Assembly: GCF_964204645.1 (NCBI RefSeq)
Contig: NC_134028.1
Span: 7,006,001 to 7,070,000, forward strand
Length of the DNA: 64,000 nucleotides
Reading direction: 5' to 3'
Source of the DNA: Tubulanus polymorphus
Taxonomy: Eukaryota > Animalia > Nemertea
The notes under the pieces are model-generated. The model was not told where the DNA came from, did no database searches, and worked only from the letters and a program-made list of their open reading frames with translations. Numbering within the stretch: position 1 is the first letter of the stretch; each line of letters starts with the position of its first letter. The position numbers and the translations under genes were made by a program. Shown here piece by piece: positions 25,238 to 52,399 of this stretch.

Positions 25238-28200
25238 TTAGCATTTCTTATGCATGTACACAGTATTCGAATTATAGTTCGTTCGGAGTGATTTGTTGTG
25301 GTAATAACAAAATTTAGTAAGAACGTTGAAAGTTACTCCGGTGCATTCCTCGTCCAAATAACAAATCTCTCCGCACTGGTCAGCATTAAGAGCGCTTGCT
25401 TGTGCCATATTAGCTCCAGCTTGTTGGGTATTCACACGTTTTTCCATCTTACAATGCTTGGCTTCGAAAGAAAAAATCAAACAATCTTATCATAGTTCTA
25501 CATGATGAAATCTCAACTTGGACATGAAATTGCATGACTGTGGCTTCGAAAGGGTTATACAATTTGATGGACTCAAAAAATCCACAACCTTTTCGCTGAC
25601 ATACCTGTGTTGAGCTTTTTGAAATAACTGCAGCCTTTGTTTGCTACAACATTTTTCAGTACGTTATGCAAGTAACAACCGTCTTTGATTTTATTGTAAG
25701 TTGCCGCGAGACAAGCATTTTCAGAAATACAGGCTTCTTTACAAATCCCTTCATTATCAGCGTAGATCGCTTTAAGGTCACCTCCTGGTTGTTGAGTATT
25801 TGCTGATTTAATCATTCCGATATCATCTGCATTAGATATGTGTGTATCATTCGTTTAAGTAAGTAATTGATGAATTTGGGCGTGGACTCTAAAATGATGT
25901 CCATGATTTGGGCCATTCGTTTTGCCGATGACGAGTCACTTGATTTGTTCGGATTATCATAGCGAATTTATCACGTCAAATTAAATTTGATTGTAAGTAA
26001 AATCGTATTTATCCTGGCATAATCAAATTTGATTTGGTCTAATTTTTGAATTTAACACTGTATCAAATTCAAAGCGATTTCACAAATCATCAAATCACCT
26101 CCGGAGGTGACTTGATACGATTTGAAGACGGTGAACTCACACATTCTTTTCGAAAAACTGATATAAAATGCTCAAAACTGAAAGAGAAACTGAAACTCAT
26201 TCATAGGAAACAATCTAAAATGCGGGGCAGTAATTTTCTTGTCAGCCGTTTGGAACAAGACGTCAAATTCATCCTGTGGTGCAAATCTTATTTGATATAA
26301 TTACACGTGACTAGCAAGATAAATTCGCCTCATGTCAGTTGAAAAGAATATCATACAATTGGAAATTCTGAACTATATGCAGTATGTAAGCAACGGCAGG
26401 TGGAGTTAAGGACCCAGTTCCACAGTTGTGAGTTAAGATTTGACTCTGAGTTAACTCATTGAAAATGAACTAATTTTAACTCAGAGTTAACACTAACTCA
26501 GAACTGTGGAACTGGATCAAGGTGGTATATCAACCTACCTTTATATGATTCGAACGGTTTACACTGATATAACATTCTAATTCTCTTGACGTCCATTGGT
26601 TGTAGCATTCCTGACCCGAGAACCTCTCCGGGTGGCTTTGACGTCATCGTCGGTTTGCCATTTTTACTGAATCCCTGCGCGTTATAGTGCATCAGGGAAC
26701 GGTAGTTATACGACATACCCTGAGTAGTCGATGAGCGATAATTTTGTTTATTAAATACTTTCCAGTCGTCTGTAAAAGGATCAGTTAATTGTCTCATATA
26801 TAGATGTACACTTGGAAAAACCACCAGGAACAGTCAACGACTCTTTTTTGTCACATTAAGATAAACCCTTGGCCTAGCCCACAGTATTTTGAAACTTACT
26901 TGGGTCAATGTTGTCCCAGTGAACGGTGATGTGTTCATCACGGTCGGGTCTGTCCTGTTCGTGATGGAAACCCAACGCATGGATCACTTCGTGCATTACA
27001 GTATTCTTGGTTATACATTTCGGAGAATTGAGGGATAGCTTCTGACCCCCGCTATACCGCATTCCAACGTAGGACCAACATCTTAAAATGTTTAGGATAA
27101 ACCACTTGTGACATATTGATATATTTTTCACAGTGAATAACAGTTGTAAGGCAAGCTTACCCGCTTCCTTGGTGTATTTTCAAATAGAATTTTTCGTTCG
27201 TACGTGGTTGGAAACGTAAACAACCAGGACTGGCCTTGTTTACCATATACTGCAACCACTGTAATCCGTGTTCTATGATTGCTTCGTCTTTCACGGCTGA
27301 AATTGCGTAAAACGAAATCTATTTCTTTTTTAGTAATTCAAGGATTAGCTGTTTGCTGGAACATTTTCAAACTATATAGAAACATATCAGAAAGGAGCAC
27401 AACTATTTGATCTAGACAGTGCATGTACAAACGATAACAGCAAATGTAACTTACAGTAGCCAGTCATGGTGTAGGGGACGATACCGTTAGTCCACCTCCT
27501 TTCTTGATTTGTTATCGCATTTCGTAACTAGAAAATTGTCCAAAAAATTTCTGAACTGAATTTGCCAACACAACCGATGTAACGGATTATAGTTTTATTC
27601 ACCAGCCCATACGCGAGTATAGTCTATTCATACTTACACGGGGTAAAGCGATGTCACCTTCATATTTGCCTGTTCAGAATCAGAAACAAAACTTGTACAG
27701 TTCAATGGATGTTCTTACAGCATGATAGCAGATATATTTCAAATATTTACCTGAAGCCAAAACGTAATCTGGAAATAGAATAATGATGGTACGTTTATGA
27801 ATTATTTTCTATAGAAAAAGATTTTTCTAAGAATATCGCTAGAACCAACAATACATCGCACAAACTACGTTCTACGAAGAACTCTTTTAAATTTATACTC
27901 ATGGTATCATGATATTATTGAAAATATCAACTAAAAGACTATCGTAAACATCTCATTACAACACTGGTTAATACTTACCCATATCAGTCAAAACCCTCCC
28001 CTGAAAAGTCCAAGGAGAAAAAATGGAAAAGGTTAAATCCAAAACATCGAGCTCTGATTAGATATTGCTGGAACAGGAATCTATTATATCTCTTAGAACG
28101 TCTCGTTCTCGTTAGATCCCAATGGGTTCTTTGACAAATTTTCAATTTGAATATAACAGGAAAGTTTTTACATCGATATCTTCTTACCTGAACTGATAAA

Positions 28201-28244
28201 ACACATATTGAACAAAGTAAGCCAATGCTCATAAAAGCAGCCAT
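25238..28244 (-). CDS. Secreted astacin (M12A) metalloprotease with two C-terminal PAN/Apple domains, copy A (398 aa)
   Basis: 10 exons: 28188-28244 (signal MAAFMSIGLLCSICVLSVQ), 27979-28000, 27751-27768, 27638-27669 (YEGDI Asp switch), 27455-27527 (R|NAI...W..G.VPY), 27161-27296, 26900-27081 (CWSYVG; HEVIHALGFHHEQDRPDRD), 26539-26769 (SLMHY), 25605-25826 (PAN1), 25238-25461 (PAN2, TAA). Total 1197 nt, in frame. Confidence 0.93.
26410..26518. mobile_element. Short palindromic MITE (CCAGTTCCACAGTT TIR family)
   Basis: CCAGTTCCACAGTTGTGAGTTA...TAACTCAGAACTGTGGAACTGG. Also at ~23928-24022 and ~15175; not seen in the equivalent intron of the other copies. Confidence 0.75.
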
Positions 28245-29060: not shown

Positions 29061-29497
29061 TTAGCATTGTTTATGCACACATACACAGAGAGCGCTTTCA
29101 GTTGCAATATCTGGGCCTTTTTGTTGGGTATTCATTCGTTTTTCCATCTTACAATGCTCGGCTTCAAAGATGAAATGTAAAATAGTAAATAGTAATGAAA
29201 AATAGTAACAACATCAACATACAATGGTTTATCACGATTCCATGTTGCCAATTGCAGGACCCGTATAAAAAAATTACTGTTTTTGAACTATTAATCTTTG
29301 ACATGAAATCGTATGATTGTGGCTTCGAACGCGGGTTATACAATCTAGTAGACTTCAGAAACCATTTACGACTTCAATGTTGACATGCCTGTGTTGAGCA
29401 TCTTGAAGCAGCTGCAATCCTTATTTGCTACAACATCTTTCAGTGCATTATGCAAGTAACACCTGTGGTTAATTTTGTTGTAAGTTGCCGCGAGACA
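29061..29497 (-). pseudogene. Orphan, degenerate PAN1/PAN2 exon pair (3' fragment of an astacin-PAN gene)
   Basis: 29389-29497 is the 3' half of a PAN1 exon (CLAATYNKINHRCYLHNALKDV..), with its donor changed to GCATGT. 29061-29161 is a PAN2 exon with a large internal deletion. It has its own AATAAA downstream. Confidence 0.85.
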
Positions 29498-29756
29498 AGG
29501 CAGTCCGGCGGTGCAAAACATTCTGTATGATAACTTTTTGGCAGTACAGTATTCCTTTTTTATAGGAACTTTTTGACTGTATGTTGATTGTATGTTAGCT
29601 GACATACAGATTCTGTAGATTTCAGCTGGCTATTCACTCACCGACTACGCTTCTAACCAACCATAACCAAAACCAAATCGAAATGAAATGTGAGGAAAAA
29701 GTAACAGATTAACATGCTAGTTTTTTTTTATTAGGAATGGAAATTTTCATCGCGAT

Positions 29757-32700
29757 TTAGCATTGTTTATGCACATACACAGTATTTGAATTAGGGTTTG
29801 TTGGTTTTGATTTATTGTGGTAATAACAGGTTTTACTTCCAATGTTGAAAGTTACTCCGGTGCACTCCTCGTCCACAGAACAAATCTCTCCGCACTGGTC
29901 AGCAGTCAGAGCGCTTCCAGTTGTCATATCTGGGCCATCTTGTTGGGTATTCACATGTTTTTCCATCTTACAATGCTCGACTTCAAAGATAAGATTGAAA
30001 TAGTAACAATATCAACATACAATGGTTTATCACGATTCCATGTTGCCAATTGCAGTACCCGTATGAAAAATTGTTTTTGAAATATATAGAACTTTGACAT
30101 TAAATCGCATGACTGGTGGCTTCGAAAGAGATATACAATTTGGTAGAATTTAGAAACCATTTACGACTTCAATGCTGACATACCTGTGTTGAGCTTCTTG
30201 AAGTAGCTGAAGCGATCATTTGCTACAACATTTTTCAGTGCATTGTGCAAGTAACAGCGCTTGTTAATTTTGCTGTAAGTTGCCGCGAGACAAGCATTTT
30301 CAGAAATACAGGCTTCTTTACAAACCCCTTCGTTACCAGCGTAGATCACCTTAAAGTCAGGTCCTATTTGTTGAGTATTTGCTGATTTAATCATCGCGAA
30401 ATCATCTGCACATAAATATATGAATATCATTCGTTGTTTAAGTAATCGCTGAATTTCGGTACTTCGTTATTTCCGATGATTATTAACGTGATTTGTTCGG
30501 AGTATCATGACAGTTGAACTAAAAATGGCGTACAAGAGGTACGTTCTTTACCAGATTGTTATTTTCAGATTTCTGGCAGAGGTCTTATCCTAGAATTTAT
30601 GATTTTCTATATGACATCATCGTGATTTACTTCTATATTCAGTTACCTCTATATTATATTTTTCAGTTACCAAAACCCAATAATCGCTGGGCATTTGTGA
30701 CCATAGATCTTTAAATTTTTAGGACTTAAAAAAGAAGTGGAATTCAAGTTTTTAACTTTTTCCCATAAAGAAAATCAATCTAGATAGCTACGTAGTTCCC
30801 ATCAATCTAGATAGGCCATACAGCAGTTCCTCCATACCCCCAAACATATATTCAGTTTCTAGATACCGGTATACCGGTAATACCACCTGCAATATGTAAT
30901 CAACGTTAACTCGCCTTTATCCGATTCGTACGGTTTACACTGATATAACATTCGAATTCTCTTGACGTCCATTGGTTGAAGGATTCCTGACCCGAGAACC
31001 TCTCCAGGTGGTTTTGACGTCATCGTCGGTTTGCCATTTTTACTGAATCCATGAGCGTTATAGTGCATCAGGGAACGATAGTTATACGGCATACCCTGAG
31101 TACTCGTCGAAGTTCGTATGTTAAATATACCCCAGTTGCCTGTAAGAAATATCAGTAATTTGTGATACAAATGATTTGATCTTTATACTTAATATAATGA
31201 TTAGTGAAAACATTGTTCGTAGTTCGTCGTGATAGTTAACAATATGATGCGTTATCAGAGAGAAAATCAGTTTAGTACGAAGTGACATTTCTTCTAGAAG
31301 AGAGATGAAATGTTAATAAAAGTTGGCGTGGTTACTTGGCGTATATTGCCACAGTATTTTTGAAACCCACCTCGTTTGATGTTGTCAAAGTTTATAGTGA
31401 TGTATTCATCACGGTCAGGTCTACCCTGTTCGTGATAAAAGCCCAACGCGTGGATCAGTTCGTGCATTGCAGTATGCCACGTTAAGCAACCCGGAGACTT
31501 TAGGGATAGCAACTGACCCCCGCGATATCGCTGCATTCCAACGTAGGACCAACACCTGAAATGTTTTGGTTAAACATTGATTGATGAAATATTTTTCATA
31601 ACGAACTCATCAGACGGTAGGACAAGCTCACCCGCTTCCTGAGAATATCTTCAACAGGAATCGTTCGTTCGTACGTGGTTTAAACCGTATACAACCAGGA
31701 CTGGCCTTATTTACCATATACTGCAACCATTGTAAACTGTGTTCTATGATTGCTTTATCATTCGTAGCTGAAATTATGAATAGCAATCTACGCATCTATA
31801 TTAGAAATTCAAGTATTTGCTGTTGGCTGGAGCAGTTTCAACTAGAAAGAAGCACGCCAGACGCATACCCATTGCAGTGCTCGAAGTCGAAGCTGTCTCA
31901 TTGCGACAGCTAATACGATCGCATTCTAGGCCAATTCAAGGCTAAGGTCGGCCTAAAGGACCGGTAATACATCGGACAAGTATTGGATTTTATCAATTTA
32001 AAAAGGCCGACCTTTTCGGGTTTGGGAAACATTTGATCTAGAGGCGAATGGACAAAAGAACGATAGTAAATGGAACTTACAGTATCCAGTAATGTTGTAG
32101 GGTACGATGCCGTTAGTCCACTTCCTGTATGTTATCGCGTTTTTTGTCTGAAAAATTGTCCCAAAAAGGTCATAACTGAATTCACCACGATTATATATGT
32201 CGATATAACAGGCGATATAACAGTTTTTTTTAGCTTATACGCCAGAAACGTTCTTTATACTTATACTTACAAGGGGTAAGGCGATGTCACCTTGATATTT
32301 GCCTGTTCAGAATCAGATACAAAAATTGTACAATTCAATGAATGTTCTTAAAGCATCATAACAGATAGATTTCGAATATTTACCTGAAGCCAAAACGTAA
32401 TCTGGAAACAAAAAGATAATGGTGTGTATATGAATAACTTTCTAAAGAAAAGGATTTTTTTTCTGGTCTGTGAATAACGCATCGCTAGAACCAAATATCT
32501 ATCGCAAAAACCACATTTCATGAATAATTCATTTCATTTTCATTCATGATATTATTGAAGATATCAAATGATGAACACGTTTCAACTGATAATTGTTGAC
32601 GACGTTGGTCATAAATACACTTACCCATATCAGTCAAAACCCTCCCCTGAAAATATGAATGAATGAATTTATTTGCAAAATAAATTGTTACAAAAAATAT

Positions 32701-32999
32701 CGACACAATATACATTATATTCAAAGTAAATTACGTCCAAGAAAAAATTTAGGAAAAATTGATCCAAAACATCGAGCTCCGATTAGATATTTCTTTACAG
32801 GAATCAGTTATAGCAGACGATACTTTTACGAACAGACGACAGATCTCAAAGTCTCGTTCTCGTTAGATCCCAATGGTTCTTTGACAAATTTTCAATTTGA
32901 ATATCACAGAAAACTTATCTTTTTACATCGATATCTTCTTACCTGAACTGATAAAACACATACCGAACATAGTAAACCGATGCTCACAAAAGCAGCCAT
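29757..32999 (-). CDS. Astacin-PAN-PAN metalloprotease, copy B (395 aa)
   Basis: Exons 32943-32999, 32625-32646, 32384-32401, 32271-32302, 32081-32147, 31632-31767, 31371-31555 (HELIHALGFYHEQGRPDRD), 30915-31139 (SLMHY; GC donor), 30184-30405, 29757-29980. Total 1188 nt in frame. An in-frame upstream ATG at 33026 is possible. Confidence 0.9.
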
Positions 33000-34197: not shown

Positions 34198-34775
34198 AAA
34201 GCAGCCGGGCTGGACAGTAATATTCATCGAAGAAATCGTTTTGCTGCTTGTTATCGGGATTTTACTAATTTGTTCGTTGCAGGTACTGATGCCGTAAATC
34301 GTGGAACTATCTTTTCGTGAATGAAAATGTGAATTTGTGATATTTCCGGTCAATCGAAATCAATTTTTTTTTTGTTAGAGATCTACAGGTCGACCAACCT
34401 TGCCACCCTTAGTTAATTTCAACCATAGTTAATAAATAGTTAATTCTAAAGCTCCGGTAACACTGTATACAGGCCAAGGCGATGGTTTTGTAGAATGGTT
34501 TTGTAGGGGTAGTCTCCAAAAGATTCTTATGGTTTTCTAGGCAGTCGGGCGGTGTAAAAACTATTGTTGATACTTTCTTGCAATCTATGATTGTACGTAT
34601 GTTGATCGTATGTTGGCTGACGTACAGATTACGTAAAATTCAGGTGGCTATTAATTCACTCACCGACTACTCTTCTACATAAAAAAGTCGAATCGCTCTG
34701 GAATAAAATATCGGGGAAAAGTAACGGCTTAACATTCTAGCTTTGTTTATTAAGATTGGAGATTTTCATCAAGAT

Positions 34776-37700
34776 TTAGCATTTTTTATGCATATACACA
34801 GTTTGCGAATTGCGTATCGTTAGGAGTGATTTATTGTGGTAATAACAGGTTTTAGTTCGAATGTTGAAAGTTACTCCGGTGCATTCCTCGTCCAAAGAAC
34901 AAATCTCTCCGCACTGGTCAGCATTAAGAGCACTTGCTTGTGCCATATCAGCTCCAGCTTGTTGGGTAGACGTACGTTTTTCCATCTTACAATGCTTGGC
35001 TTCAAAGAAAATGTCAATATTCAAAATATTATCAAAATATATCATGCTTCTATAACTTGCCGACTTTTCATTGAAATCTTAACTTTGACATAAAATCGCA
35101 TGGCCGTCGTTCGGAAAGATTTGTACATTTTGGTGGACTTTGCTCCATTACGACCATTTTGTTCACCAAGAATCTTAGTGTCTGATGTACCACAGATTGG
35201 TTACACTAGGATCGTAGTGCGACGGAGATCACTGGTGGAGACAACCACTGCCAGTGCTGGGTGAACCATTTTGCTGACATACCTGTGTTGAACTTCTTGA
35301 AGTAGCTGCAGTCTTTATTTGCTACACCATTTTTCAGTGCATTGTGCAAGAAACAACCGTGGTTAACTTTGGTTAGCATTTTCAGACATACAGGCCTCCA
35401 TACAAACTCCTTCATTATCAGCGTACATCGCTTTAGAGTCAGGTCCTAGCTGTTGAGTATTTGCTGATTTAATCATTGCGAAATTATCTGCACAGAAATA
35501 TATGAATATTATTTATTCATTGTTTGATTAAGTGATGCTAAATTTCGGTACTTTTTGTCGACGATGAGTCACAAAATTTGTGACAATTGTTCTTAACCAG
35601 TTTGCTATTTTCAGCTTTCGGCAGAGATCGCTGTGATAGGGCCCTAGCTTACATCAATCTAGATTTTTCAATATTTCACCAACCAAAACCCAACCGCTCC
35701 CCCAAAACATTTTCAACTTCAAGATGCGTATAGTATGTACTATCTGCAATATCAACGCCGTGGAGTTTGGGTTTTATGTCCACCCACCTTTATCTGAGTC
35801 GTACGGTTTACACTGATATAACATTCTAATTCTCTTGACGTCCATTGGTTGTAGCATTCCTGACCCGAGAACCTCTCCTGGTGGTTTTGACGTCATCGTC
35901 GGTTTGCCATTTTTACTGAATCCATGAGCGTTATAGTGCATCAGGGAACGATAGTTATACGGCATACCCTGAGTACTCGAAGACGTTTGTTTGTTAAATA
36001 CGCCCCGGTTCTCTGTAAAATATTAAATTTTCAGTGTTATTTTGTATACAAAGTATGAAGATTAGTGAAAACAGTGTACGTATGTGCTTCGTGACAATAT
36101 GTTGATTCGTGGGTGACAAAATCAGTTCAGTAAAAACTGACATTTCTTCTAATACATTTACACTAAGAAAAACTACCAAGAATAGTCAACGCATTTCTAC
36201 TCTCACTAGAAGAGGGGTTAGATGTTATATAAGCTCTTGGTTGGCCACAACATTTTTAATGCTTACTTGGGTCAATGTTTTCCCAGTGAACGGTGATGTG
36301 TTCATCACGGTCGGGTCTGTCCTGTTCGTGGTGAAAACCCAACGCATGGATCACTTCGTGCATTACAGTATTCTTCGTTACACAACCCGGTGAGTCTAGG
36401 GATAGTTTCTGACCCCCGCGATAGGTCTGCATTCCAACGTAGGACCAACAGCTTAAAATGTTATGCATGGGATGTTAACTTGAAACATTGATGAAATATT
36501 TTTCATGGCGAAGTTATCAGTACGATAAGCTCACCCGCCTCCTTGATGTATCTGCAAAAAGGATTCTTCGTTCGTACGTGGTCTGAACCGTAAACAACCA
36601 GGACTGGCCTTGTTTACCATATACTGCAACCACTGTAATCCGTGTTCTATGATTGCTTCGTCTTTCGTGGCTGAATTATGGAATGAAATCCATTTGTTTT
36701 GTAGAAAATCAAGGATTTGTTGTTGGAGAAGTTTCAAACTAAAAAGAAGCACGCCAGAAACAGACCCGTGGCGTGAGTGATTTTATGGACAGTTCGTTTT
36801 TTTTTGTGCGAAATTGCTGACATTTTAAAACGGCGCTTGAAGCTGAAGACGTCTCGTTGTGACGGTAAATGCGCTCGCAGTTCTAGGCTTTCTTTCATGC
36901 TATGTAGTTCACTGCCAACCATATCTGAAGGCCTATAGGACCGGTAGTACATAGGACAAACATTGGATTCTATTCTATTTCAAAGGCCGACCTTTTTCGG
37001 ATTTTGGGGAGTTTTTCGTAGCATCCCCTCCCCAGACACACACACACTTCCGGGTCTGAGATCTAGAAAAATATTTGATCTAGATGCGAATGGACAAAGG
37101 ATAATAGAAAATGAAACTTACAGTAGCCAGTGATGGTGTAGGGTACGATGCTGTTAGTCCACTGTCTGTTTGTTATCGCGTTTCGGAACTAAAATTGTCC
37201 CAAAAAATATCTGAACTAAATTCATTAAGATACCGATGTAACAGGTTATAGTTTTATTTATTAGCCTATACGCCATAAAAGTCTATTCATACTTACAAGG
37301 GGTAAAGCGATATCACCTTGATATTTGCCTGTTCAGAATCAGATGCAAAAATTGTACCTGCAGTTCAATGGATGTTCTTAAAGCATCATAACAGATAGAT
37401 TTCGAATATTTTACCTGAAGCCAAAACGTAATCTGGAAGTGAAATAATACTGGTACACATATAATTGTTCTCACTAGAAAAGGATTTTTTGATCTGAGAA
37501 TATCGCCAAAACCAACTATCCATCGCGAAAGCTACATTCTAGGAAGTATTCATTTCATTGCCAGCCATTATATAATTGGAAAAAAATATCAAGTGGTCAT
37601 ATAAATATACTTACCCATATCTGTCAAAACCCTGCCCTGAAAATATACGTCCAAGAAATAATTAGGAAAAATTGATCCAAAACATCGAGCTCCGATTAGT

Positions 37701-37937
37701 TATTATATTGATATAACGGAAATTAATAGCATACAGACGAGGTATCTTTACAAACAAACGACATATCTCAAAGTCTCGGTCCATACAGATTTACTACCAG
37801 ATACTCCAATGGATCTTTGACGAACTTCAATGTGAAAATCACAGAAACAAAGTGATCATTGTACATCAATATCCTCTTACCTGAACTGATAAAACGCATA
37901 TTGAACATAGTAAGCCGATGCTCACAAAAGCGGCCAT
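34776..37937 (-). pseudogene. Astacin-PAN-PAN copy C: intact catalytic domain, frameshifted PAN1 exon
   Basis: Exons 37881-37937, 37615-37636, 37415-37432, 37297-37328, 37122-37188, 36535-36670, 36267-36451 (HEVIHALGFHHEQDRPDRD), 35788-36012, 35283-35487, 34776-34999. Exon 9 is 205 nt versus 222 nt in the paralogs, giving TAA at 35363-35365. It may still be functional if exon 9 is skipped. Confidence 0.8.
35161..35266. mobile_element. 106-bp MITE with 6-bp TSD
   Basis: CATTTT|GTTCACCAAG...CTGGGTGAAC|CATTTT; absent from the same intron in the other copies. Confidence 0.75.
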
Positions 37938-39359: not shown

Positions 39360-42300
39360 TTAACATCTTTTGTGAACAAACACAGTTCGTGGATTGCGGA
39401 ACGTTTTGAGTGATTTATTGTGGTAAAAACAGGTTTTAGTTTGAACGTTGAAAGTTACTCCGGTGCATTCCTCGTCCACAGAACAAATCTCTCCGCACTG
39501 GTCAGCATTAAGAGCGCTTGCTTGTGCCATATCAGCCCCGCCTTGTTGGGTATTCGCATGTTTTACCATCTTACAATGCTTGGCTTTAAGGAAACAGTTA
39601 ACAAATTAAGAATATCTAGTTATTAAGAATATTAAATTAAATTAAATTAAGAATATAATAGTTTATCATAATTCTATTACTTGCCGAATTTTCTTATTAC
39701 TGCACTATTTACTGTGACATAAAATCGCCAAGGCTGTGGCTTCGAAAGAGTTATACAATTTGGTCGACTTAGAAAAAAACATTTACGACTTCAATGCTGA
39801 CATACCTGCGTTGGACTTCTTGAAGTAGCTGCAGTCTTTATTTGCTTTAACATTTTTCAGCACATTGTGCAAGTAACAACCGCGGCGAATTTTATTGTAA
39901 GTTGCCGCGACACAAGCATTTTCAGACATACAGGCTTCTTTACAAATCCCTTCATTATCAGCGTAGATCGCTTTAAGGTCACCTCCTGCTTGTTGAGTAT
40001 TTGTTGATTTAATCATTCCGATATTATCTACATTGAATATATGTATATTGTTCGTTGATTAAGTAATTGCTAAATGTGGGCAATTCGTTTTGCCGATGAT
40101 GCGCCACGTGATTTGTTAGAAGTATCATCCGAGTTTAGTGAAAAATGACATAAAATTGGTCAGTTCTTTGCCAGTTTGTTTTCTTTTCAGGCAGAGATCC
40201 AATCCTAGAATTAATAATTTTCTATGACGTCATCACGATTTACCTCTGCATTAAGTTTAACCAAAAACCGAAAAATGCATAGGCGTTATGACTATAGATC
40301 TTTTAATTGTTAATAAAACGTTATAGATTTTAAAGAAATATGATTCAAGCTTTGGATTCCCCCCATAAAACTCAATTTAGATGGGGGTCTAGTTCACATC
40401 AATCTACAAAGAGCAGTTTTTCCACCAATCCGAACGAGCGTATAGAACCCCCCCCCCCCTGGACATTTTCAGTTTTTATATACGTATGTATCGTACCATC
40501 TGCAGTATATTATAATCGACGCCTGGTGGGGTAAGGGTGTTATATCAACCTACCTTTGTATGATTCGTACGGTTTACACTGATATAACATTCTAATTCTC
40601 TTGACGTCCATTGGTTGTAGCATTCCTGACCCGAGAACCTCTCCTGGTGGTTTTGACGTCATCGTCGGTTTGCCATTTTTACTGAATCCCTCAGCGTTAT
40701 AGTGCATCAGGGAACGATAGTTATACGGCATGCCCTGAGTACTCGAAGACGTTTGTTTGCTAAATACGCCCCGGTTCTCTGTATAATATTAAATTTTCAG
40801 TGTTATTTTGTAAACAAAATATCAAGATTAGTGAAAACAGTGTACGTATGTGCTTCGTGACAATATGTTGCTTCGTGGGTGACAAAATCAGTTCAGTAAA
40901 AACTGACATTTCTTCTAATACATTTACACTAAGAAAAACTACCAAGAATAGTCAACGCATTTCTACTCTGACTAGAAGAAGGGTTTGACTAGAAGAGGGG
41001 TTAGATGTTATATAAGCTTTTGGTTGGCCACAACATTTTTAATGCTTACTTGGGTCAATGTTTTCCCAGTGAACGGTGATGTGTTCATCACGGTCGGGTC
41101 TGTCCTGTTCGTGGTGAAAACCCAACGCATGGATCACTTCGTGCATTACAGTATTCTTCGTTACACAACCCGGTGAGTCTAGGGATAGTTTCTGACCCCC
41201 GCGATTCGGCTGCATTCCAACATAGGACCAACAGCTTTAAATGTTTAGGAAAAATAACTTAATAAAATATTGATGAAATATTCTTCGTAGTGTAGTTACC
41301 AGAGGTCAGACAAGCTCACCCGCCTCCTTGGTGTATCTTCAAATAGTATTCTTCGTTCGCACGAGGTTTAAACCGTAAACAACCAGGACTGGCCTTGTTT
41401 ACCATATACTGCAACCACTGTAAACCGTGTTCTATGATTGCTTCGTCTTCCGCAGCTGAATTATGAAATGAAATATATTTGTTTTTAGTAATTCAAGGAT
41501 TAGCTGTTAGCTGGATCAGTTTCAAACTACAAAGCAACACGCTAAAACCAAACGCATGGCATGATTGATTTTAGGCGAAAATGCGGACCTGTTAGCTGAA
41601 CTTTTTGAAAAAGCACTCGAAGGTTAAGACGTCTCATTGTGACGGCAAATACGCTAGAAATCCTATGCTTCCCATGTAGTTCGCTGCCAACCGCACTTGA
41701 AGGCCTAAAGGACCGGAAGTACGTAGGACACGCGTAGGATTTCATTCAGTTGTAAAGGCGGACCTTTTCGGACTTTTTGCAGTTTGTCGTGAACTGATCT
41801 AGAGGTGAATGATAGTAAATGGAACTTACAGTAGCCAGTCATGGTGTAGGGTACAATGCCGTTAGTCCACTGTCTGTTTGTAATCGCGTTTCGCAACTAA
41901 AAGTTGTCACAAAAACTTCTTAACTGAGTACAACAAAACTAGACCGATACATCAGCATTTTAACCGTAGTTTAATCAGTCATACGCGAGAATAGTCTATT
42001 CATACTTACACGGGGTAAAGCGATGTCACCTTGATATTTGCCTGTTGATAATCAGAAACAAAACTTGTACAGTTCAATGGATGTTCTTAAAGCATCGTAA
42101 CAGATATGTTTCAAATATTTACCTGAAGCCAAAACGTAATCTGGAAATGAAACAATAATGGTGTGTATAAATCATTTTCTATAGAAAAGGATTTTTCCGA
42201 TCTGAGAAAATCGAGAGAACCATCGCAAAAACTACATTCCAAAAGTATTCATTTAATTTCTACTCTTTTATTGAAAAAATCAACTAATAAATATTTCAAC

Positions 42301-42617
42301 TGATAATTGTTGACGACGTTGGTCATAAATATACTTACCCATATCAGTCAAAACCCTCCCCTGAAAATATAAGTCCGAGAAAAATGTTGAAAAAAAAATT
42401 GATCCAAATCACCGAGCTCCGATTAGATATTTCTTTACAGGAATCAGTAATAGCAGACGATGTCTTAACGAACAGACGACAGATCTCAATATCTCGCTCT
42501 GACGAATGTTCGATATGAATGTCGCAGAAAGGTACTCTTTGTAAATCAATATCTTCTTACCTGAACTGATAAAACGCATATTGAACAGAGTAAGACGATT
42601 CTCACAAAAGCAGCCAT
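39360..42617 (-). CDS. Astacin-PAN-PAN metalloprotease, copy D (395 aa)
   Basis: Exons 42561-42617, 42339-42360, 42123-42140, 42010-42041, 41830-41896, 41320-41455, 41050-41234 (HEVIHALGFHHEQDRPDRD), 40554-40778 (SLMHY), 39806-40027, 39360-39583. Total 1188 nt in frame. Confidence 0.92.
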
Positions 42618-44080
42618 GTTGAACGCTCGTTTCAAAGAATGCATCGATATTGTACGTATACTTTTGCATCAACGTTTATATTCTCCAGCTACATAATAAT
42701 CCGTTATCAAATGCTAATATATTATTGCGATAAGCCATTTCCTGATGTTCGGATAATCAAATGTTGCACGGGTCACCCTCACAGCCGGATCTAACTTTTC
42801 ACTTATCTCAGCATAGTGTTTATTGCGTGTCATCAGAAATTCATTTAAGTTTTTGGTGTATACGCTCGTTCTCTTTTCAGCCTTCACCCCACTCAAAGTT
42901 TACAAGGCTTTTTCGTGTTTTATAAGTGTTTGTTTTGTATACCACTACGTTTGTTTGTTTCCTTTTTTGCAGTTTCCTGGCTGAATCGTATGTGGGTGTA
43001 CCGGATCTTTTCGCGAAATTAGAATACAACTTGTATTCTAAATGTATGTTGATTACAATTTCAAATCCCAAATATATTACCATTTATCATGTAATAGCAA
43101 GTCTAACTTATTTTGCCTCAAATCCCATGCATAGGTACTATACCAAGTCTTACGAAGCAATGATGCCATAAATATTTCTAGATTATATTCAAAGAACTAC
43201 TAAACGAAAATGGAGACTGGGATATTTCATTTTATAAATTACGTAACCACAAAAAGAAATCAATACTTCCTATCCTATATTCGAACTCCAAACGACGGAT
43301 AAATCATTAACCTGAAAAATCGTTGCACCTGTTGACCACGAATGAACGTCCGATTCAGGGAATGTTTTAAGTTATCGATGACCTAATTTTAATGATTAGA
43401 ATATACATGCCTCAAGTGCAGCCGATCTGGACAGTAATATCTATCGAAAACAATGGTTTAGCAGTTCGTAAGCGGGATTTGACTGATATGTTCATTCCAG
43501 CTACTGCTGCGAATGTGAATTTGCAACATCTCGGCTGATAAAACTAATTTGTTTCGGTTATCAGATATAAACAGGTTTACATATTCCAGTTTCGTGGAAT
43601 GTACGTAAACGAGGTAGTCTTTAAAAGATCCTGTGGAAGTTCCAGGCAGTGGGACGGTGCAAAAACTACTGTTGATCCTACTTCGCAACACTGAATTCTT
43701 TATCTTATTGGTATGTTGATTGTATGTTGGCTGACGTACGTAGAATTCATCCGACTATTGATTCACTCACCGACTCTAACATACAAAAACCGAATCGCTC
43801 GGGAATAAAATATCAGGGAAAAGTAACGGCTTTATATTTTACATTTCTTCATTCAGATTGCCAATTTTCATTAAGATTTAGCATTGTTTATGCACATACA
43901 CAGTTATTGAGCTCCTTTTCTATGAACAAATGTTGATTGTATGTCAGCTGACGTACAGCTGACGTGCACCTTACGCTATAAACTACTGTAACCAAATCCG
44001 AATCGAAATGAAATGTTAGGAAAAAGTAACGGCTTAACATGCTAGTTTTGTTTATTAAGAATGAAAATAATTTTCAAGAT

Positions 44081-47000
44081 TTAGCATTGTTTGTGAATAT
44101 ACACAGTATTCGAATTGGAGTTCGTTGGTTTTGATTCATTGTGGTAATAACATCTTTTATTTCCAATGTTGAAAGTTACTCCGGTGCACTCCTCGTCCAC
44201 AGAACAAATCTCTCCACACTGGTCAGCATTGAGAGCATTTCCGACTGCCATATCTGGGCCTATTTGTTGGGTATCCATTCGTTTTTCCATCTTACAATTC
44301 TTGGCTTCAAAGAAAAAAATCAACATATCAACAATATTATCACAGTTCATCATAATTTCATTACTTGCCGATTCTTTATTGAAATCTTTGACATTAAATC
44401 GCATGGCTGTCGTTTCGAAAGAGTTATACAATTTGGCAGACTTCAAAAACCTTACCGACTTCAATACCGATATAGTACCTGCGTTCAACTTCCTGAAGTA
44501 GCTGCAGCTGATATTGGCTACAACATCTTTCAGAACATTATGCAAGTTACAGCGCTTGTAAATTGTGTTGTAAGTTGCCGCGAGACAAGCATTTTCAGAC
44601 ATACAGGCTTCTTTACAAACTCCTTCATTATCAGCGTACATCCTTTTGTAGTCATCTCCTGGTTGTTGAGTATTTGCTGATTTAATCATTCCGATATCAT
44701 CTGCATTAAATATACGCATATCATTCATTGTTTATTAAGTGATTGCTGAAGATGAATCACGTGATTTGTATGGATATCATTGTCAGTTGAGTTGAAAATG
44801 ACATACAATTGGTAAGTTCTTTAACAGTTTGTTATTTTAGGATTTTTGGCTGAGATCGGCATCCATTTTTGGCAGAGAATTTATGATTTTCTACAGTATA
44901 CCTCCATATTTAAGATTAACCAAAACCAAAAAGTGGCTGTGCGTTTGTGACTATTGAATTGAATTTATTTTGCATTTCAAAATTACATTATGAAATAGAA
45001 AAATTTACAGGGTTCCGTGTGAATTTTTTACAATATAGAGCAATGATAACTAATACGTAGGTCTTTCAAATTTGAATACGTAATAAAATGTATAGAAGAT
45101 TAATTCTAACTAAGAATTTTTCCTTCCAAACTCAATTTAGATAGGGACCTAGTTCACATCAATCTACATAGAGCAAATTTTTCACCAACCTGAACCCAAC
45201 CTCTCCCCCAAACATTTTCAGCTATAAGATCTGCAATATGTAATCAACGCCAGGTGGAGTAAGGTTTTATATTTACCTACCCTTATCAGATTTGTACGGT
45301 TTACACTTATATAACATTCGAATTCTCTCGACGTCCATTGGTTGTAGCACTCCTGGCCCGAGAACCTCTCCTGCTGGTTTTGACGTCATCGTCGGTTTGC
45401 CATTTTTACTGAATGCATAAGCGTTATAGTGCATCAGGGAACGGTAGTTATACGGCATACCCTGAGTACTCGTCGAAGTCCATAATTCAAAATTAAACCA
45501 TTTGTCTGTAAAATTATCAGTTGAATTTCTAATCAAGATAAGTGAAAGCTGTGTACATGTTCTTCGTGATAGTTAACAATGTGTTGCTTCATGTGAGAAA
45601 ATCATTTCGGTACAAAGTGCTATTTCTTCTAATGCATGAACACTAAGAAAAATCACTAAGAGTATTCAATGACCCGTTTATTTTACTCTGACTAGAAGAG
45701 GGTTGAAATTTTATAAAAGCTATTTTGGCCTGGCCACAGCTTTTGGAACTTACTTGGGTAAATGTTGTCCCTGTTTATGGTGATGTGTTCATCGCGGTCG
45801 GGTGTGCCCTGTTCGTGGTGAAAACCCAACGCATGGATCACTTCGTGCATTACAGTATTCTTCGATACACAACCTGGTGAGTCTAGGGATAGCTTCTGAC
45901 CCCCGCGATAGGTCTGCATTCCAACGTAGGACCAACAGCTTAAAATGTTTAGAAAAATAACATTTGACATTGATGAAAATATTCTTCTCCATAGTGATTT
46001 TATCAGATGTAAGACAAGCCCACCCGTCTCCTTGGTGTATCTTCAAATAGTATTCTTCGTTCGCACGAGGTTTAAACCGTAGACAACCAGGACTGGCTTT
46101 GTTTACCATATACTGCAACCACTGTAATCCGTGTTCTATGATTGCTTCGTCTTTCGCAGCTGGATTTATATGAAATACAATCTATATGTTTTGGAAGTCC
46201 AAGGATTAGCTGTTAGCTGGAACAGTTTCAAACAAGAAAGAAGCACGCCAGAGACAGACTCATATCGTGAGGTTAATTTTTACGAAAATGCGGACCTTTT
46301 AAAACGGCGCTTGAAGGTGAAGACGTCTCGTTGTGACGGCTAATACGTTTGCAATTCTAGGCTTCCTATTGTAGTACGCTGCAAATCCTACATACCTGAA
46401 TGCCTAAAGTACCGGCGGTACATTGGACAAGCATAAGATTCCATTCAACTGCTAAAGGCCGAACTTTTCCTATTTTGGGCTGTTTGTCAAAACATCTCTA
46501 CCCGAACACCAACACACCACACGTGCGGACCGAAGACCTAAAACTTTTTGGCCTAGAGGTGAATGAGCTAAGAAAAGTAAATGCAACTTACAGTAGCCGG
46601 TCATGGTGTAGGGTACGGTGCCGTTAGTCCACTGTCTGTTTGTTACCGCGTTTCGGAACTAGAAATTGTCCCAGAATATCTGACTTAATTCATTAAGATA
46701 CCGATGTAGCAGGTTATAGTTTTATTCATCAGCTCATACGCGAGAATAGTCTATTCATACTTACACGGGGTAAAGCGATGTCACCTTGATATTTGCCTGT
46801 TCAGAATCAGATACAAAAATTGTACAATTCAATGGATGTTCTTACAGCGTCATAACAGATACATTTCGAATATTTACCTGAAGCCAAAACGTAATCTGGA
46901 AACAAAAAGATAACGGTACGTATAATGAATAACTTTCTATAGAAAAGATTTTTTCTGATCTGGAATATCACTTGAACCAGCTACCAACGCTAAAACTACA

Positions 47001-47796
47001 TTACATGAATAGTTCATTTCATATTTAAAGAAAATATTAACTGATTAATTACGTTTCAACTGATAGTTGTTGACGACGCTGGTCATAAATATACTTACCC
47101 ATATCAGTTAATATCCTCCCCTGAAAATATAAGTCCAATAAAATTTTAGAAAATTGATCCAAAACATCGAGCTCCGATTAGATATTGATGTAACAGGAAT
47201 TAGTAACAGCAGACGCGATAATAGTATGTACAGTCAATTTCGTGGTTTTTAACCCCCTTGCATAAAGATCTTGTTACTTAATTAACTCCCCACCCGTACG
47301 TACATTATGGAAGACCCTCTCAACCAACGAATTGCATAATATTATGCTTAATTTGTTGACCTTTCTATTGAAAAAAAAACGCCGTGATGGTCGCTAGAAT
47401 TTTATAGCGACGATGTTTCTATTATACAAAATCGTGTTAATCTTAGGATATTTAGAGTGGGGGTGATATCAGGATACTGTAATTTTATATCTTGTGTCAC
47501 TGCTTGGTGTCCACTAAGTAGGTATATTTTCTTATGAGACCCCCTTATCAGAAAAGAAAGTACCTTTTTCCGACCCCCTCCCCGTACGAAGTTAGTACAT
47601 TAACATTATTCGTTTACCACTCCCACCAAAACCGTATATACATACTATTTGAACGCTCCCTGTACGAACTGACGACAGATTTCGAAGACAGTCTCATTCA
47701 GGTTAGATCCCAATTTTACATCAAATACCTTCTTACCTGAACTGATAAAACACAGTATGTCGAACACAGTAAGCCGACGCTCACAAAAGCAGCCAT
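44081..47796 (-). CDS. Astacin-PAN-PAN metalloprotease, copy E (396 aa)
   Basis: Exons 47737-47796, 47099-47120, 46878-46895, 46765-46796, 46592-46658, 46024-46159, 45754-45938 (HEVIHALGFHHEQGTPDRD), 45281-45505 (SLMHY), 44479-44700, 44081-44304. Total 1191 nt in frame. Confidence 0.9.
47221..47661. mobile_element. Degenerate MITE in intron 1 of copy E
   Basis: About 440 bp absent from intron 1 of A-D. The right end TACATACTATTTGAACGCTCCCT is partly mirrored by ATAGTATGTA at the left end. Confidence 0.55.
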
Positions 47797-49443
47797 GATA
47801 AACGTTTGTTTGAAAGCATGCATTTCAGACGATTATTTATACTTCTTTGCATAAACATTTATGATCTCTTACTATATGTATAATCATCCATTATCACAAA
47901 TGTTTACGTATATACGCATCATAGCGATTACCCATTTGCTGATGTCCAGATAATCAGGTGTTTTTATGGCTCACACTCGCTGCCGGATCTATGGTTTATT
48001 GCGTGTTATCAGAAATTCACATTAACTTATTTGGTGTAAAAACGTGCGCTTGTTGATTCTATAACCCGCCCTCGTGCTCACCCAATGTTTATTAGGTTTT
48101 TATATTTCATGATTAGATAATATGTTTTTTATGATTGTTTCTATTTTTTACATTTTCCTGGCTTTATCGTACTTGGGTGTGTCGCATCTTTTCACGAAAT
48201 CAGAATAGAACCTGTATTGTGAATATAATGTTAATTGCGATTACTTTTCCAAATTGTCATTTACACATTAAACATATTACCATTTATCAATCAGTGTCAA
48301 GTCTTTTAACTCAAATGCGGCGCCGGTGACCAGGATATTATATTTCACAAATTACTTACCTTACCACATAGGATTGATTCTTCACATTTCTTCTGATTTT
48401 GTATGAAAAATCATGAACCTGAATATCATTGCACCTGATGACCACGAATGAACTTCCATTTCAGGAAATGTTTTTAAGTTATTGATTACCTGCTTGTAAT
48501 GATTAGAATATATGCCTTAAGTACGGCAGCCGAGCTGGACGGTAACTGCAGCAGTGAATCGTGCGACCATCTTTTTTGTAAATAGAAAATGTAAATTTAT
48601 AACATCTTCGGCCGATTGCAACTAATTTGTTTCGCTATCAGATATAGACCGAGGCGATAGTTTCGTGGAATGTACGTGACGAAACGGGGCATTTAAAATA
48701 TCCTCCGGGTTTTCCAGGCTGTTGGACGGTGCAAAAACTACTGTTGATACTATTTTGCTACACTGAATTCTTTATCTATTATTGTATGTCGATTGTATGT
48801 TTTTGATCTTAAAATGAGAATTTACCCTGTTATTTATACTACTCCTTTTTGGTGTATACGTGCGCTTGTTAGCTCTATTACCCGCCATCGTCCCACCCAA
48901 CGTTTACATGGTTTTCGATGTTTCATGACTGGATTGTTTGTTTTGTTTACCGTTGTTTTTTTTCTGTTTTGCAGTTTCCTGGCTGAATCCTATGTGGGTG
49001 CGCGGCATTACTCAATCAAAATTAGAACAGAACATGTATTCTAAATGTTTGTTTATTACATTTACAAATCCGAATCTTCATTTGCATGGATAGCAAGTCT
49101 AACTTATTCTGCCTCAAATCCCGTGTATCGGTAGGTCTTATCCGAAGCAGGGACACCATGAATATTTGTAGAGCGTATTTGACGAACTACTAAACGAAAA
49201 TGGAGACCGGGATATTCCATTCTATAAATCACGTAATCACAAAAAAAATCGATTCTTCCTATCCTAATTTCGGATTCCAAACGTTGGATAAATCATAAAC
49301 CTGAAAGTCATTGCACCTGTTGACCACGAATGAACATCCAATTCAGGAAATGTTTGAAGATAAGACCTGATTGTGATGATTCAGAATATATGCCTTCAGT
49401 ACGGCGGCCGAGCTGGGCAGTAAAATAGACCTATATGGAAGAT

Positions 49444-52399
49444 ATGGTTTCGCTGTTTGTTAGCGGGCTTTTGTTAATTTGTTCAGTCCAGGTAACAAAA
49501 ATAACTTTCGCATTATCTGAGCTGAGCTGCGCCGAAATCATGAAAATTATGGAGAGCGTCACAATATTTACCAATCGATGCACGTAGACGATAGGCTATC
49601 TGAACTTGACAGAAAAAAGATTCGGCTCAACCGAGGCCCGTTGTTCCATAAAATGATGTAAACTGATTTTAAGGTGAATGAAATGTTATCGTTTTCAGTT
49701 TCAGGCCAGGGCTGCGACTTATACAGGTAAAAACGTAAACTGTTTTTATTTAATATGGCTCGAGGATTTCAATTCATTAATATTGTATAAGCTATGATCT
49801 GGATCTTTTCTGGGCGTCTACGAATTTACATGGACAAATCACATGTTTTACATATATATTGCGGAATCTGCAGAAGACCTACGTAGGTATTTAAACTTAA
49901 ATGTCCATTTCAATTTTATTCAAGCTCGGTCCGAAGGAAGCATTGCAGGGAGCCAAAATGTAACGCGAAACGTAAGTATAGGTTCATTCCTACTTTCCAA
50001 AATATATCCACATACTTTAGGCGGGACATTGGTTTAAACGTGAATTGTGTAATCGAAGATTTTTGATTGCTGTTGTCGGAATATGAGTTTCACATTTTAG
50101 GTCAGAAATGCCGTAAATAGTAATCAGCGTTGGCCGCATGGAGTCGTACCTTACCTGTTAACAGGATTCAGTAAGTCACCGCCCACTTGTGAAATATCTA
50201 TTGAATATCTATCTGCACACACGGGAAAAGTTTCTTATGATGAAAACTGAATTGTTTTATCAAGGTGGGAATGAGCAGGCGAAAATAGAGCATGCGGTGC
50301 AAATGTTGAATTACTTGGTGAACAAAGGGAGATCGTATAGATCAGATTGCATTCGTTTCAAACCACGAACATCCCAAACTGACTACGTGAAAATACAAAA
50401 GGGAAAAGAGTGAGTTCCCAACTGACGTGAATAGTGAAACGAATGATCGGCTGGTTTTCACTCTTATTTCTTGAAACAATTCATACATACTTAATTATAC
50501 TGTATATAAACAATTACATGTATATAAACGTACCCATCTTTTTTTCTGATAGATGTAGTTCTTCAATTGGAAAGATCGGTGCCGTTCAGTCGGTTTCGCT
50601 GAATAGTGAATGCTTGGACAAAAATGGTGTGATCCGCGAATTGATTCACGTTCTTGGATTCGGTTATGAACAAAACAGACCGGATCGGGATCAGTTTGTA
50701 GCCGTCAACTGGGACAACGTCAAACCAGGTGAGCCTATAGTCGAAGCATCCTCACTATGTCTTAACTTCACGAATCCTCGCGATTTATTCGTGAAATTTC
50801 ATGCCGTGTTTTTTGTCATTACGCAGAGTATAAGGATAGTTTCAAGATAGAGGAGAAAAGTGTCACTTTAGGCGTACCCTACAACTACCGTTCGGTGATG
50901 CATCTCAATAGGTATCAATTCAGTAAAAATGGAAAACCGACGCTGACACCAAAACGAACGGGAGAACTGATGGGCGGCGGAGTACTGCAACCACTCGACG
51001 TTAAGAAGATTAGAATATTGTATAAATGCACCCCGTACGAACCGGAAACAGGTAAACCAGTAAGGCCATGCGAAGTGCTTTCCCCGGACCCACAGTAAAG
51101 CCCGCCGCACACGGCATAACATTCGTTTCACCGAAACAGAAAACACGTTTTCACACAACGCGAACGATAAAACGTTCAACGCATGAAATAACAAAACACA
51201 TCGAACCCGTTTTTGACGAGGAAAAAAACGTTTTTGTTCAGTGCCGCCTGCGACGGGCTTAATCGTCTCTTTCTGCGCAGAGTAACGCCAACCGTCCCCC
51301 TCCTCTCACAGCCAAAACTGTAAAACTGCGTCACACATTGAACCATCTCATGACATACTGATCCTTTTGGAATAATCAAGATTCATCATTAGGAGCGCAG
51401 ATCGCATGTTCTAGATGAACTGTTTTTTAGAATGCTGGGGTACGCGTTTGCCGATGCTGGGTCCATTTTTACGTATATCATCTTCAGCAAGTTCATTTTT
51501 CGGCGCTTAGTTGCTGTAGTGTTTTGATTATCGCGAATCCTCGTTAACATTTTCAGATATTTTCGGGATGAGGAAATCAGAATACAAACAACAAGCCGGT
51601 CCCGATATAAAGGGAATCCGAGCGTACGACGGAGGATCGTGTAAAGAGGCCTGCATGCGAAACCACCCGGCATGCGTTGCGTCAACTTTCAACGTGAAAA
51701 CTAAATCGTGTTACTTACATAGCGCTCTGCGAAAATTGAAATCCTCTAGCGATTGTATTTACTTCAAGAAATTCGACCATTCCAGTAAGTATAATGAATA
51801 AAAACATGTATATCAACTTGAGAACTGCCAGGATTGACAAACTGTCCGCAGGTATGACGATGGAGCGTCACGCAAGTAAGTCAAGGATGTAAACTCGATT
51901 TCCTAAAATATCTTTATTTTTTTCAAATTTACATCGGTCTATCTGTATACGACAGTAATTCGTTGTTTCTTCGCACGAAAATGTTAAGAAATAAAACCCG
52001 AATTCATATTGCAGGAAATGACATCTAAAAGCATCAATTTCTAAACATTTCCTGGCAGAGTCGAAGGGTTTACGCCAGTTCTAGGGTTCTGCAACAACGA
52101 ATTTCATCTAATGAAAAGTTCGACCCTTTCAAATCTTCTAGATGTCCCTGGGTGATTGATACTACGCATATCTAATTTCAGAATGCCAAATGACCGAACT
52201 TCGAAGTACTGGAGTGGCCGGAACGGTTTTGTACACATTGACTTTGGAAAGTGCCGGTATGTGCAGAGACAGTTGCCGCGTCGATGAAGAATGTCTAGAA
52301 GCAACTTATCGCACTGACTCGAGAAAATGTTTCTTCATGGCGAAATCCATTGCTAGATTCATAGATCAAAAACGAATACATTTCATAAAACAATGTTAG
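49444..52399 (+). CDS. Predicted catalytically inactive astacin-like protein with two PAN/Apple domains, copy F (~395 aa pseudo-protease)
   Basis: Exons 49444-49491 (MVSLFVSGLLLICSVQ), 49705-49726, 49874-49882 (uncertain; ancestral 49865-49882), 49925-49971 (SEGSI), 50101-50170 (RNAV...WPHGVVPY), 50265-50409, 50553-50728 (RELIHVLGFGYEQNRPDRD), 50827-51051 (SVMHL), 51557-51784 (PAN1), 52182-52399 (PAN2, TAG). Intron phases match A-E and the frame is open. Confidence 0.88.

What the first reader, a model, noticed from the sequence alone, without database searches (positions are those of the whole stretch)
25238..52399. Astacin-PAN-PAN locus: five diversifying proteases head-to-head with one zinc-less pseudo-protease
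Seen: six genes share a 10-exon, phase-matched layout. A-E (minus strand, tandem units of ~4.5-5 kb) retain HExxHxxGxxH, SxMHY and a Y(E/Q)GDI Asp switch. F (plus strand, start ~1.65 kb from E's start, divergent) is far more diverged yet open, and lacks the zinc ligands. Known: astacins are secreted zinc endopeptidases used in digestion, hatching, venom and matrix processing; PAN/Apple domains bind glycans or proteins. Inference: a co-regulated secreted module in which variable enzymes sample different substrates while a single dead paralog acts as scaffold, chaperone, substrate-presenting cofactor or inhibitor decoy. I do not recognise this as a described system.
Basis: partly seen in the sequence, partly recalled or inferred. 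Interest (0 to 1): 0.85.

Follow-up and report, generated by a model that had tools for sequence, protein, structure and literature searches.

The report
Zinc-less astacin beside an amplified family
In a ribbon worm genome, five recently duplicated secreted-type protease genes sit head-to-head with one older, spliced copy that has lost four zinc-contacting residues but kept its structural ones, so it is likely a maintained non-cutting binding protein; a working partnership with the five enzymes is untested.

Summary
The locus is real and lies in the nemertean Tubulanus polymorphus (RefSeq match). A-E are tandem astacin-PAN-PAN genes (76-86% identical) with full zinc motifs. Two corrections: C has a 17-nt deletion that removes its PAN domains, and F's exon 3 has three possible in-frame forms. 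F (42-44% identical to A-E) is spliced at three predicted introns. It has lost zinc histidines 1 and 3, the tyrosine switch and the aspartate switch, yet keeps all 27 structural positions that A-D keep. Its synonymous sites are saturated, dN/dS on its branch is about 0.15, and it evolves no faster than A-E: a maintained pseudoenzyme, not a decaying gene. Decayed copies of F's promoter and exon 1 lie in three spacers between the active genes, so the head-to-head pair is older than the array; only the active gene was amplified. A-E show gene conversion and a positive-selection signal, mainly in the PAN domains. No orthologue was found in another species, and co-expression and binding are untested. 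Tandem astacin arrays and pseudoproteases are both known kinds. The scan's notes held nothing similar. Verdict: a clean, lineage-restricted new variant, not a new system.

The parts
25238..28244 (-). Gene A: astacin-PAN-PAN, 10 exons, 398 aa, zinc motifs intact (RefSeq XP_074648636.1)
29088..29602 (-). Decayed partial copy of the two PAN exons (9 and 10) between A and B
   Evidence: tblastn
29757..32999 (-). Gene B: astacin-PAN-PAN, 395 aa, intact, GC donor at intron 8 (XP_074648505.1)
34201..34285 (+). Decayed look-alike of F's 5' flank and exon 1 in the B-C spacer (74% identity, start codon lost)
34776..37937 (-). Gene C: intact catalytic domain; 17-nt deletion in exon 9 truncates it early in PAN1 (XP_074648564.1, 297 aa)
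38575..38959 (+). Copy of F's promoter region and exon 1 in the C-D spacer (69% identity; ATG and GT donor kept, no later F exons follow)
39360..42617 (-). Gene D: astacin-PAN-PAN, 395 aa, intact (XP_074647717.1 covers its last 334 aa)
42850..43503 (+). Copy of F's promoter region and exon 1 in the D-E spacer (76% identity; early stop, donor lost)
44081..47796 (-). Gene E: astacin-PAN-PAN, 396 aa, intact (XP_074648504.1)
47797..49434 (.). Divergent spacer between E and F, with an internal duplication (48030-48545 matches 48848-49423); likely holds both promoters
   Evidence: promoter function inferred
49435..52399 (+). Gene F: zinc-less astacin-PAN-PAN. Exons 49435-49491, 49699-49726, 49874-49882 (uncertain), 49925-49971, 50101-50170, 50265-50409, 50553-50728, 50827-51051, 51557-51784, 52182-52399. 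RefSeq XP_074647718.1 (338 aa) starts inside intron 5.
   Evidence: joints across introns 6, 7 and 9
50553..50728 (+). F exon 7 with the altered zinc motif RELIHVLGFGYE (His1 to Arg, His3 to Tyr)
   Evidence: same letters in contigs of a second sample

Best explanation
F is an old, spliced, zinc-less paralog of the five tandem astacin genes that selection has kept folded, and it likely works as a secreted binding protein, likely made from the same divergent promoter region, that would hold the family's kind of extracellular substrate in its cleft and PAN domains without cutting it. History: an inverted duplication made a head-to-head pair (inferred from shared exon layout and tree). One copy lost the four zinc contacts (His1, His3, Tyr switch, pro-peptide Asp switch; shown) and kept the Met-turn, family Glu, RPDRD motif, cysteines, a hydrophobic N-terminus and the R-N-A maturation site (shown). 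Much later a unit made of the active gene, the spacer and F's first exon was copied in tandem (shown by remnants in three spacers). The copies undergo gene conversion, truncation and site-specific diversification, mostly in the PAN domains (shown statistically), likely broadening the substrates cut. F would act beside them as a decoy, shield or tether for substrate (inferred). Secretion, loss of activity, co-expression and ligand are not measured.
For: Selective loss: F differs at 3 of 5 catalytic or ligand columns but at 0 of the 27 other conserved columns that A-D share with 157 outside active astacin domains (Fisher p 0.002, and 0.0004 with the Asp switch as 4 of 6; test chosen after seeing the data). 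Those four codons need at least six non-synonymous changes (codons). F against A-E: pS 0.78-0.82 (saturated), pN 0.35-0.36; branch dN/dS 0.15, with 1.0 rejected at 2dL 106 over 346 codons. F is sister to A-E (96/87) on a branch of 0.71 against about 0.6-0.8 from the same node to the A-E tips; 0 of 10 relative-rate tests are significant. Run X4 holds contigs that join F's exons 6-7, 7-8 and 9-10 across GT..AG introns with no other letters, and the same run holds spliced contigs of the active copies. Remnants of F's 5' end stop at the exon-1 donor in three spacers. A-E: M2a beats M1a, 2dL 23.3, and 17.0 with separate trees for five segments (p 2e-4); 9 of the 12 best sites are in the PAN domains. 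Family features as in PMC9848320 (section 2.1 read).
Against: The functional step is inference only: no ligand, tissue or activity data. The branch dN/dS mixes F's lineage with the stem of A-E, so it is not F's alone. F's splice joints rest on two contigs of one sample (depths 3.5 and 15.5), and run X4 is not on record as RNA; its nature is inferred from the joints. RefSeq's model of F lacks the signal and pro-peptide exons, so secretion rests on my exon 1-5 model. Whole-gene dN/dS among A-E is 0.29-0.56, below 1, and gene conversion is present (p 0.0004; C and D share exon 7 to exon 8 at 97-98%), which can inflate site tests on five sequences. Head-to-head neighbours need not be co-expressed. 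No orthologous pair was found in another species.
Confidence: 0.45

Rival explanations
1. F binds the active enzymes directly, as folding helper, scaffold, activator or inhibitor.
For: Old divergent arrangement with a shared spacer; F and active copies are spliced in the same run; dead paralogs that regulate active ones are known (PMC11266112, passages read; PMC5201418, abstract start in listing).
Against: F stayed single-copy through four rounds of duplication that carried only its first exon, which suits a stoichiometric partner poorly. F shows no rate shift that tracks A-E.
Confidence: 0.2
2. F has its own role, independent of A-E (for example adhesion, mucus structure or ligand capture through its PAN domains), and the head-to-head position is only a trace of the inverted duplication.
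For: F split from A-E long ago (synonymous saturation); its PAN2 is the most diverged domain (pN 0.46-0.49); several ADAM pseudopeptidases act through other domains and shed the dead one (PMC11266112, passages).
Against: The pseudo-catalytic domain is the best conserved part of F (pN about 0.30; 27 of 27 shared structural columns), so it is not dispensable.
Confidence: 0.22
3. F keeps some catalytic or metal-binding activity through His2, the Glu and replacement ligands.
For: The catalytic Glu, His2 and Met-turn are kept.
Against: Two of three histidines and the tyrosine are gone, and the Asp switch, which only matters when zinc is bound, is gone with them; none of 157 intact outside domains has Arg or Tyr at those histidine columns (by definition of the set).
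Confidence: 0.07
4. F is a recently dead gene that has not yet decayed.
For: The array does shed copies: C is truncated and a PAN-exon fragment lies at 29088-29602. RefSeq did not model F's 5' exons.
Against: Changes are confined to zinc contacts and need at least six non-synonymous steps, with none at 27 structural columns; frame and splice sites are intact while spacer copies of exon 1 decayed; the altered motif is identical in a second sample.
Confidence: 0.05

Closest known systems
Astacin family, MEROPS M12A / Pfam PF01400 (crayfish astacin 1AST, hatching enzyme 3LQB)
   Same: Signal, short pro-peptide with a GDI Asp switch, catalytic domain with HExxHxxGxxHE, RxDRD and SxMHY in A-E; best PDB matches are astacins. 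PAN is already listed among astacin accessory domains (PMC9848320 Fig. 1 legend).
   Different: Two C-terminal PAN domains with no full-length match outside this locus among the best 150 hits; F lacks His1, His3, Tyr and Asp switch.
Metzincin pseudopeptidases (ADAM2, 11, 22, 23, unc-71)
   Same: Zinc motif altered, Met-turn kept, act by binding (PMC11266112, passages and Table 2 seen).
   Different: Those are M12B membrane proteins, and most of those tabulated lose the catalytic Glu; F is M12A, likely soluble, keeps the Glu and loses the metal ligands. That review names no astacin pseudopeptidase in the passages found (one mention of 'astacin').
Tandem astacin expansions (fish patristacin, frog hatching enzymes, nematode NAS genes)
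   Same: Lineage-specific tandem duplication of secreted astacins (PMC8812170, PMC8012361, PMC2824743; passages read).
   Different: The passages seen describe no older dead paralog facing the array, and no PAN domains.
Other zinc-motif-altered astacin domains in databases (P0005; frog XP_068115890.1; tardigrade OQV24185.1)
   Same: 13 of 170 fetched astacin domains have an altered motif; P0005 has the same Arg at His1 and Gly-Tyr at His3.
   Different: No PAN domains; 34% identity to F; P0005 does not group with F in the free tree, though a forced grouping is not rejected (p-AU 0.38).

Membership tests
Active astacin (M12A): A-E | HExxHxxGxxH followed by the family Glu | tested here: met
   5 of 5
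Active astacin (M12A): A-E | SxMHY Met-turn with Tyr switch | tested here: met
   5 of 5
Active astacin (M12A): A-E | Signal peptide and pro-peptide with FxGDI-type Asp switch | tested here: met
   Y(E/Q)GDI in 5 of 5; hydrophobic N-termini, peak hydropathy 2.3-2.9; no signal-peptide predictor was available
Active astacin (M12A): A-E | Measured zinc-dependent proteolysis | not testable with these tools
   needs an assay
Active astacin (M12A): F | Three zinc histidines and Tyr switch | tested here: not met
   R-E-x-x-H-x-x-G-x-x-Y and SVMHL
Active astacin (M12A): F | Asp switch in the pro-peptide | tested here: not met
   EGSI in place of QGDI; this exon has no splice support
Astacin non-peptidase homologue (pseudoenzyme): F | Homology to the astacin domain over its length | tested here: met
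   PF01400 139.7 bits; PDB astacins E 4e-26; sister to A-E
Astacin non-peptidase homologue (pseudoenzyme): F | Expressed, open and under purifying selection | tested here: met
   Three splice joints in one sample; open frame; dN/dS 0.15 on a branch that includes the A-E stem; selective loss
Astacin non-peptidase homologue (pseudoenzyme): F | Measured lack of catalysis | not testable with these tools
   predicted from sequence only
Enzyme plus regulatory dead-paralog pair | Physical or functional interaction between the two | not testable with these tools
   needs pull-down or kinetics
Enzyme plus regulatory dead-paralog pair | Pair conserved in related species | tested here: inconclusive
   No orthologue; no relative's genome could be searched, and close relatives may be absent from the libraries
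Nemertean mucus or venom astacins | Protein present in mucus or proboscis secretion | not testable with these tools
   Astacin-like proteins are reported in mucus of other nemerteans (PMC11768458, passages); no tissue data for this locus; the RefSeq name 'toxin 1' on E is an automatic best-hit label

The most novel reading that the evidence does not exclude
F is a dedicated regulator of its own amplified family: one constant, zinc-free astacin, driven from the same bidirectional promoter, that gates a set of fast-diversifying secreted proteases by binding them or their substrates. It would be the first astacin pseudoenzyme with a defined partner, and the Arg/Gly-Tyr plug of the zinc site, seen also in an unrelated astacin, would be a repeated route to such proteins.
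Probability: 0.25. Interest if true: 0.7.

Novelty: new variant of a known kind. Interest (0 to 1): 0.42.

Why it matters
Known metallopeptidase pseudoenzymes with a function come mostly from the ADAM and carboxypeptidase families; my searches listed no functional study of a dead astacin. F is an unusually clean case: the four zinc contacts are gone and the structural positions are kept, next to active sisters with the same domains, so enzyme and pseudoenzyme can be compared directly. The spacer remnants date the pair before the array, which is rarely readable from sequence alone. Its reach is limited: one species, no phenotype, no known ligand.

Tried and rejected
Whole-genome search: none held for this window, so paralogs elsewhere and synteny were not surveyed. 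Sequencing runs: no RNA holder listed; 4 runs, one study, at most two samples. F's exons 1-5 have no cover in run X4: no evidence either way. Contig depths were not used to rank expression of F against A-E, as the tool's answer says they cannot rank genes. Complex prediction of mature E with F: score 0.00 in two runs, verdict 'no answer', alignments not used: no evidence for or against binding. AlphaFold model of F from a 9-row alignment: mean pLDDT 52.8, too poor to read the pseudo-active site; no fold search run. ESM Atlas: astacin clusters only, feature scores 0.76-0.78, below the lead threshold. First model of F exon 3 (13 nt) broke the frame and was replaced. Idea that P0005 is F's orthologue: not supported by the free tree or domain content, not rejected by the AU test; it was also found by sharing words with F, so the likeness is partly selected for. 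Recalled claim that patristacins are catalytically dead: not found in the passages read, dropped. Earlier scan notes: nothing by sequence; one unrelated bacterial array by words. Intron identities involving F come from a gap-tolerant aligner with a random baseline of 0.60 and were not used.
Full report
Source and layout. F's exon 7 matches one database protein at 100%, RefSeq XP_074647718.1 of Tubulanus polymorphus, a ribbon worm. An exon of D retrieved RefSeq models of all five active copies on a contig of the same length. No whole genome was held.

The observation. Six-frame scans show five zinc motifs, five SxMHY and five Y(E/Q)GDI motifs, all on the minus strand. A-E have ten exons each, and A, B, D, E are open frames of 395-398 aa. 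Pfam gives Astacin + two PAN domains for A, B, D, E and F. C has a 17-nt deletion in exon 9 and stops early in PAN1; RefSeq models the same truncation. One contig from a second sample suggests this may be allele-specific. F is open over 400 codons with canonical splice sites. Its exon 3 may be a 9-nt microexon, skipped, or fused with exon 4; all keep the frame. RefSeq starts F inside intron 5, without signal or pro-peptide, so exons 1-5 rest on homology with A-E.

Transcription. Four runs of one study hold the region. Run X4 is not on record as RNA, but its contigs skip introns exactly at the predicted sites. Joints listed for the active copies include 36012/36267, 44304/44479 and 45505/45754 (table cut to the best supported). 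For F, two contigs join 50409-50553, 50728-50827 and 51784-52182 across GT..AG introns with no other letters. The altered zinc motif is also letter-identical in an unspliced contig of the second sample (50566-51162), so it is no sequencing error.

F is a maintained pseudoenzyme. The family's zinc ligands are three histidines and a tyrosine, and an aspartate of the pro-peptide binds the zinc in the zymogen (PMC9848320, section 2.1 read). F has Arg for His1, Tyr for His3, Leu for the tyrosine and Ser for the aspartate; it keeps His2, the catalytic Glu, the Met-turn, the family Glu and RPDRD. I aligned 170 astacin domains taken from 144 of 152 fetched outside proteins; 157 have an intact motif and 13 do not (the set was found with F as query, so dead ones may be enriched). 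Of 29 non-ligand columns conserved in at least 85% of the 157, F keeps 27, as do A-D (E keeps 26); its two differences are shared with A-E. Against 3 of 5 ligand or catalytic columns changed, Fisher's p is 0.002 (post hoc). Synonymous sites between F and A-E are saturated while pN is 0.35-0.36. A codon branch model gives dN/dS 0.15 and rejects 0.3 and 1.0 (2dL 10.6 and 106); this branch includes the stem of A-E. In a tree of 46 of the 176 aligned domains F is sister to A-E (96/87, bootstrap not fully settled) with no long branch, and 0 of 10 relative-rate tests against two other Tubulanus astacins are significant.

Order of events. F's upstream region and exon 1 recur on the plus strand in the D-E, C-D and B-C spacers at 69-76% identity, each ending at the exon-1 donor; the A-B spacer holds only a more distal part. 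So the repeated unit was active gene + spacer + F exon 1, and the divergent pair existed before the array (dS among A-E 0.13-0.34). F itself is single in the window (tblastn found only a decayed PAN-exon fragment at 29088-29602).

The active copies. Pairwise dN/dS is 0.29-0.56. A site model with a class above 1 fits better (2dL 23.3; 9% of sites, dN/dS 4.0). Gene conversion is present (p 0.0004), so I repeated the test with a separate tree for each of five segments; the signal fell but held (2dL 17.0, p 2e-4). Nine of the 12 sites with posterior above 0.8 lie in the PAN domains. These are my own implementations on five sequences, so 'diversifying' is supported with caution.

Relatives. A HMMER search of 1.84 billion representatives gave 14,964 hits; among the best 150 only the locus's own active representative aligns across the PAN domains, and a profile of the six PAN pairs hit none of the 152 outside proteins. 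Close relatives may be missing from the library, so this shows neither absence nor conservation.

Mechanism. Shown: architecture, selective loss, constraint, splicing of F's 3' half, order of duplication. Inferred: secretion, loss of activity, shared promoter. Untested: co-expression, ligand, partner. I favour a zinc-free binder that acts on the family's substrates (0.45) over an independent role (0.22) and direct binding to the enzymes (0.20): the pseudo-catalytic domain is F's best-kept part, yet F was not amplified with its supposed partners. Residual catalysis (0.07) and recent death (0.05) are unlikely. Where the proteins act (gut, mucus, egg coat) is open; astacin-like proteins are reported in mucus of other nemerteans (PMC11768458, passages).

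Novelty. PAN is a listed astacin accessory domain (PMC9848320 Fig. 1 legend; the figure and Supplementary Table S1 were not seen and may list a similar architecture). Tandem astacin arrays are known in fish, frogs and nematodes (passages of PMC8812170, PMC8012361, PMC2824743). Metzincin pseudopeptidases are reviewed in PMC11266112 (passages). Nine literature searches (listings of at most 25 papers each, open-access library only) showed no paper on this locus or on a function for a dead astacin. The result is a new variant of a known kind, with interest 0.42.

Noticed in passing
window 35283-35487 (C exon 9) and record 25: A contig of run X4 joins C's exon 10 and downstream flank (8 other letters in 597) to an exon 9 without the 17-nt gap that matches A at 7 of 8 listed differences. 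C's truncation may be specific to one allele, or the second sample carries a converted copy; one contig only.
   Followed up: partly
P0005 (unnamed, 367 aa): Astacin domain with RQILHVLGFGYE: the same Arg and Gly-Tyr replacements as F, without PAN domains; likely convergent.
   Followed up: partly
P0042, P0076 (Hypsibius exemplaris): Tardigrade receptor tyrosine kinases whose extracellular part is three astacin-like domains with degenerate zinc motifs.
   Followed up: no
window 55117-56244 (+): Intronless UCH-L5-like deubiquitinase gene (Peptidase_C12 + UCH_C); a useful synteny marker.
   Followed up: partly
window 18437-18571 (+) and 57760-58140 (-): Flanking exons of a cyclic-nucleotide phosphodiesterase and of a claudin/PMP-22-like gene (the second match is weak, E 0.006).
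   Followed up: partly
window 30915 (B intron 8): Non-canonical GC donor; the RefSeq protein of B reads through this junction as in my model.
   Followed up: yes
window 51560: T>A difference in the second sample (runs X2, X3) changes Ile to Asn at the start of F's exon 9; the only coding difference listed in F.
   Followed up: partly
window 47961-52813: In run X1 the whole F region is one contig of 4853 nt with one other letter; low variation or a single haplotype cannot be told apart from contigs.
   Followed up: no
P0036, P0044, P0167: Other T. polymorphus astacins on a different contig are short, PAN-less and intact; used as outgroups.
   Followed up: partly
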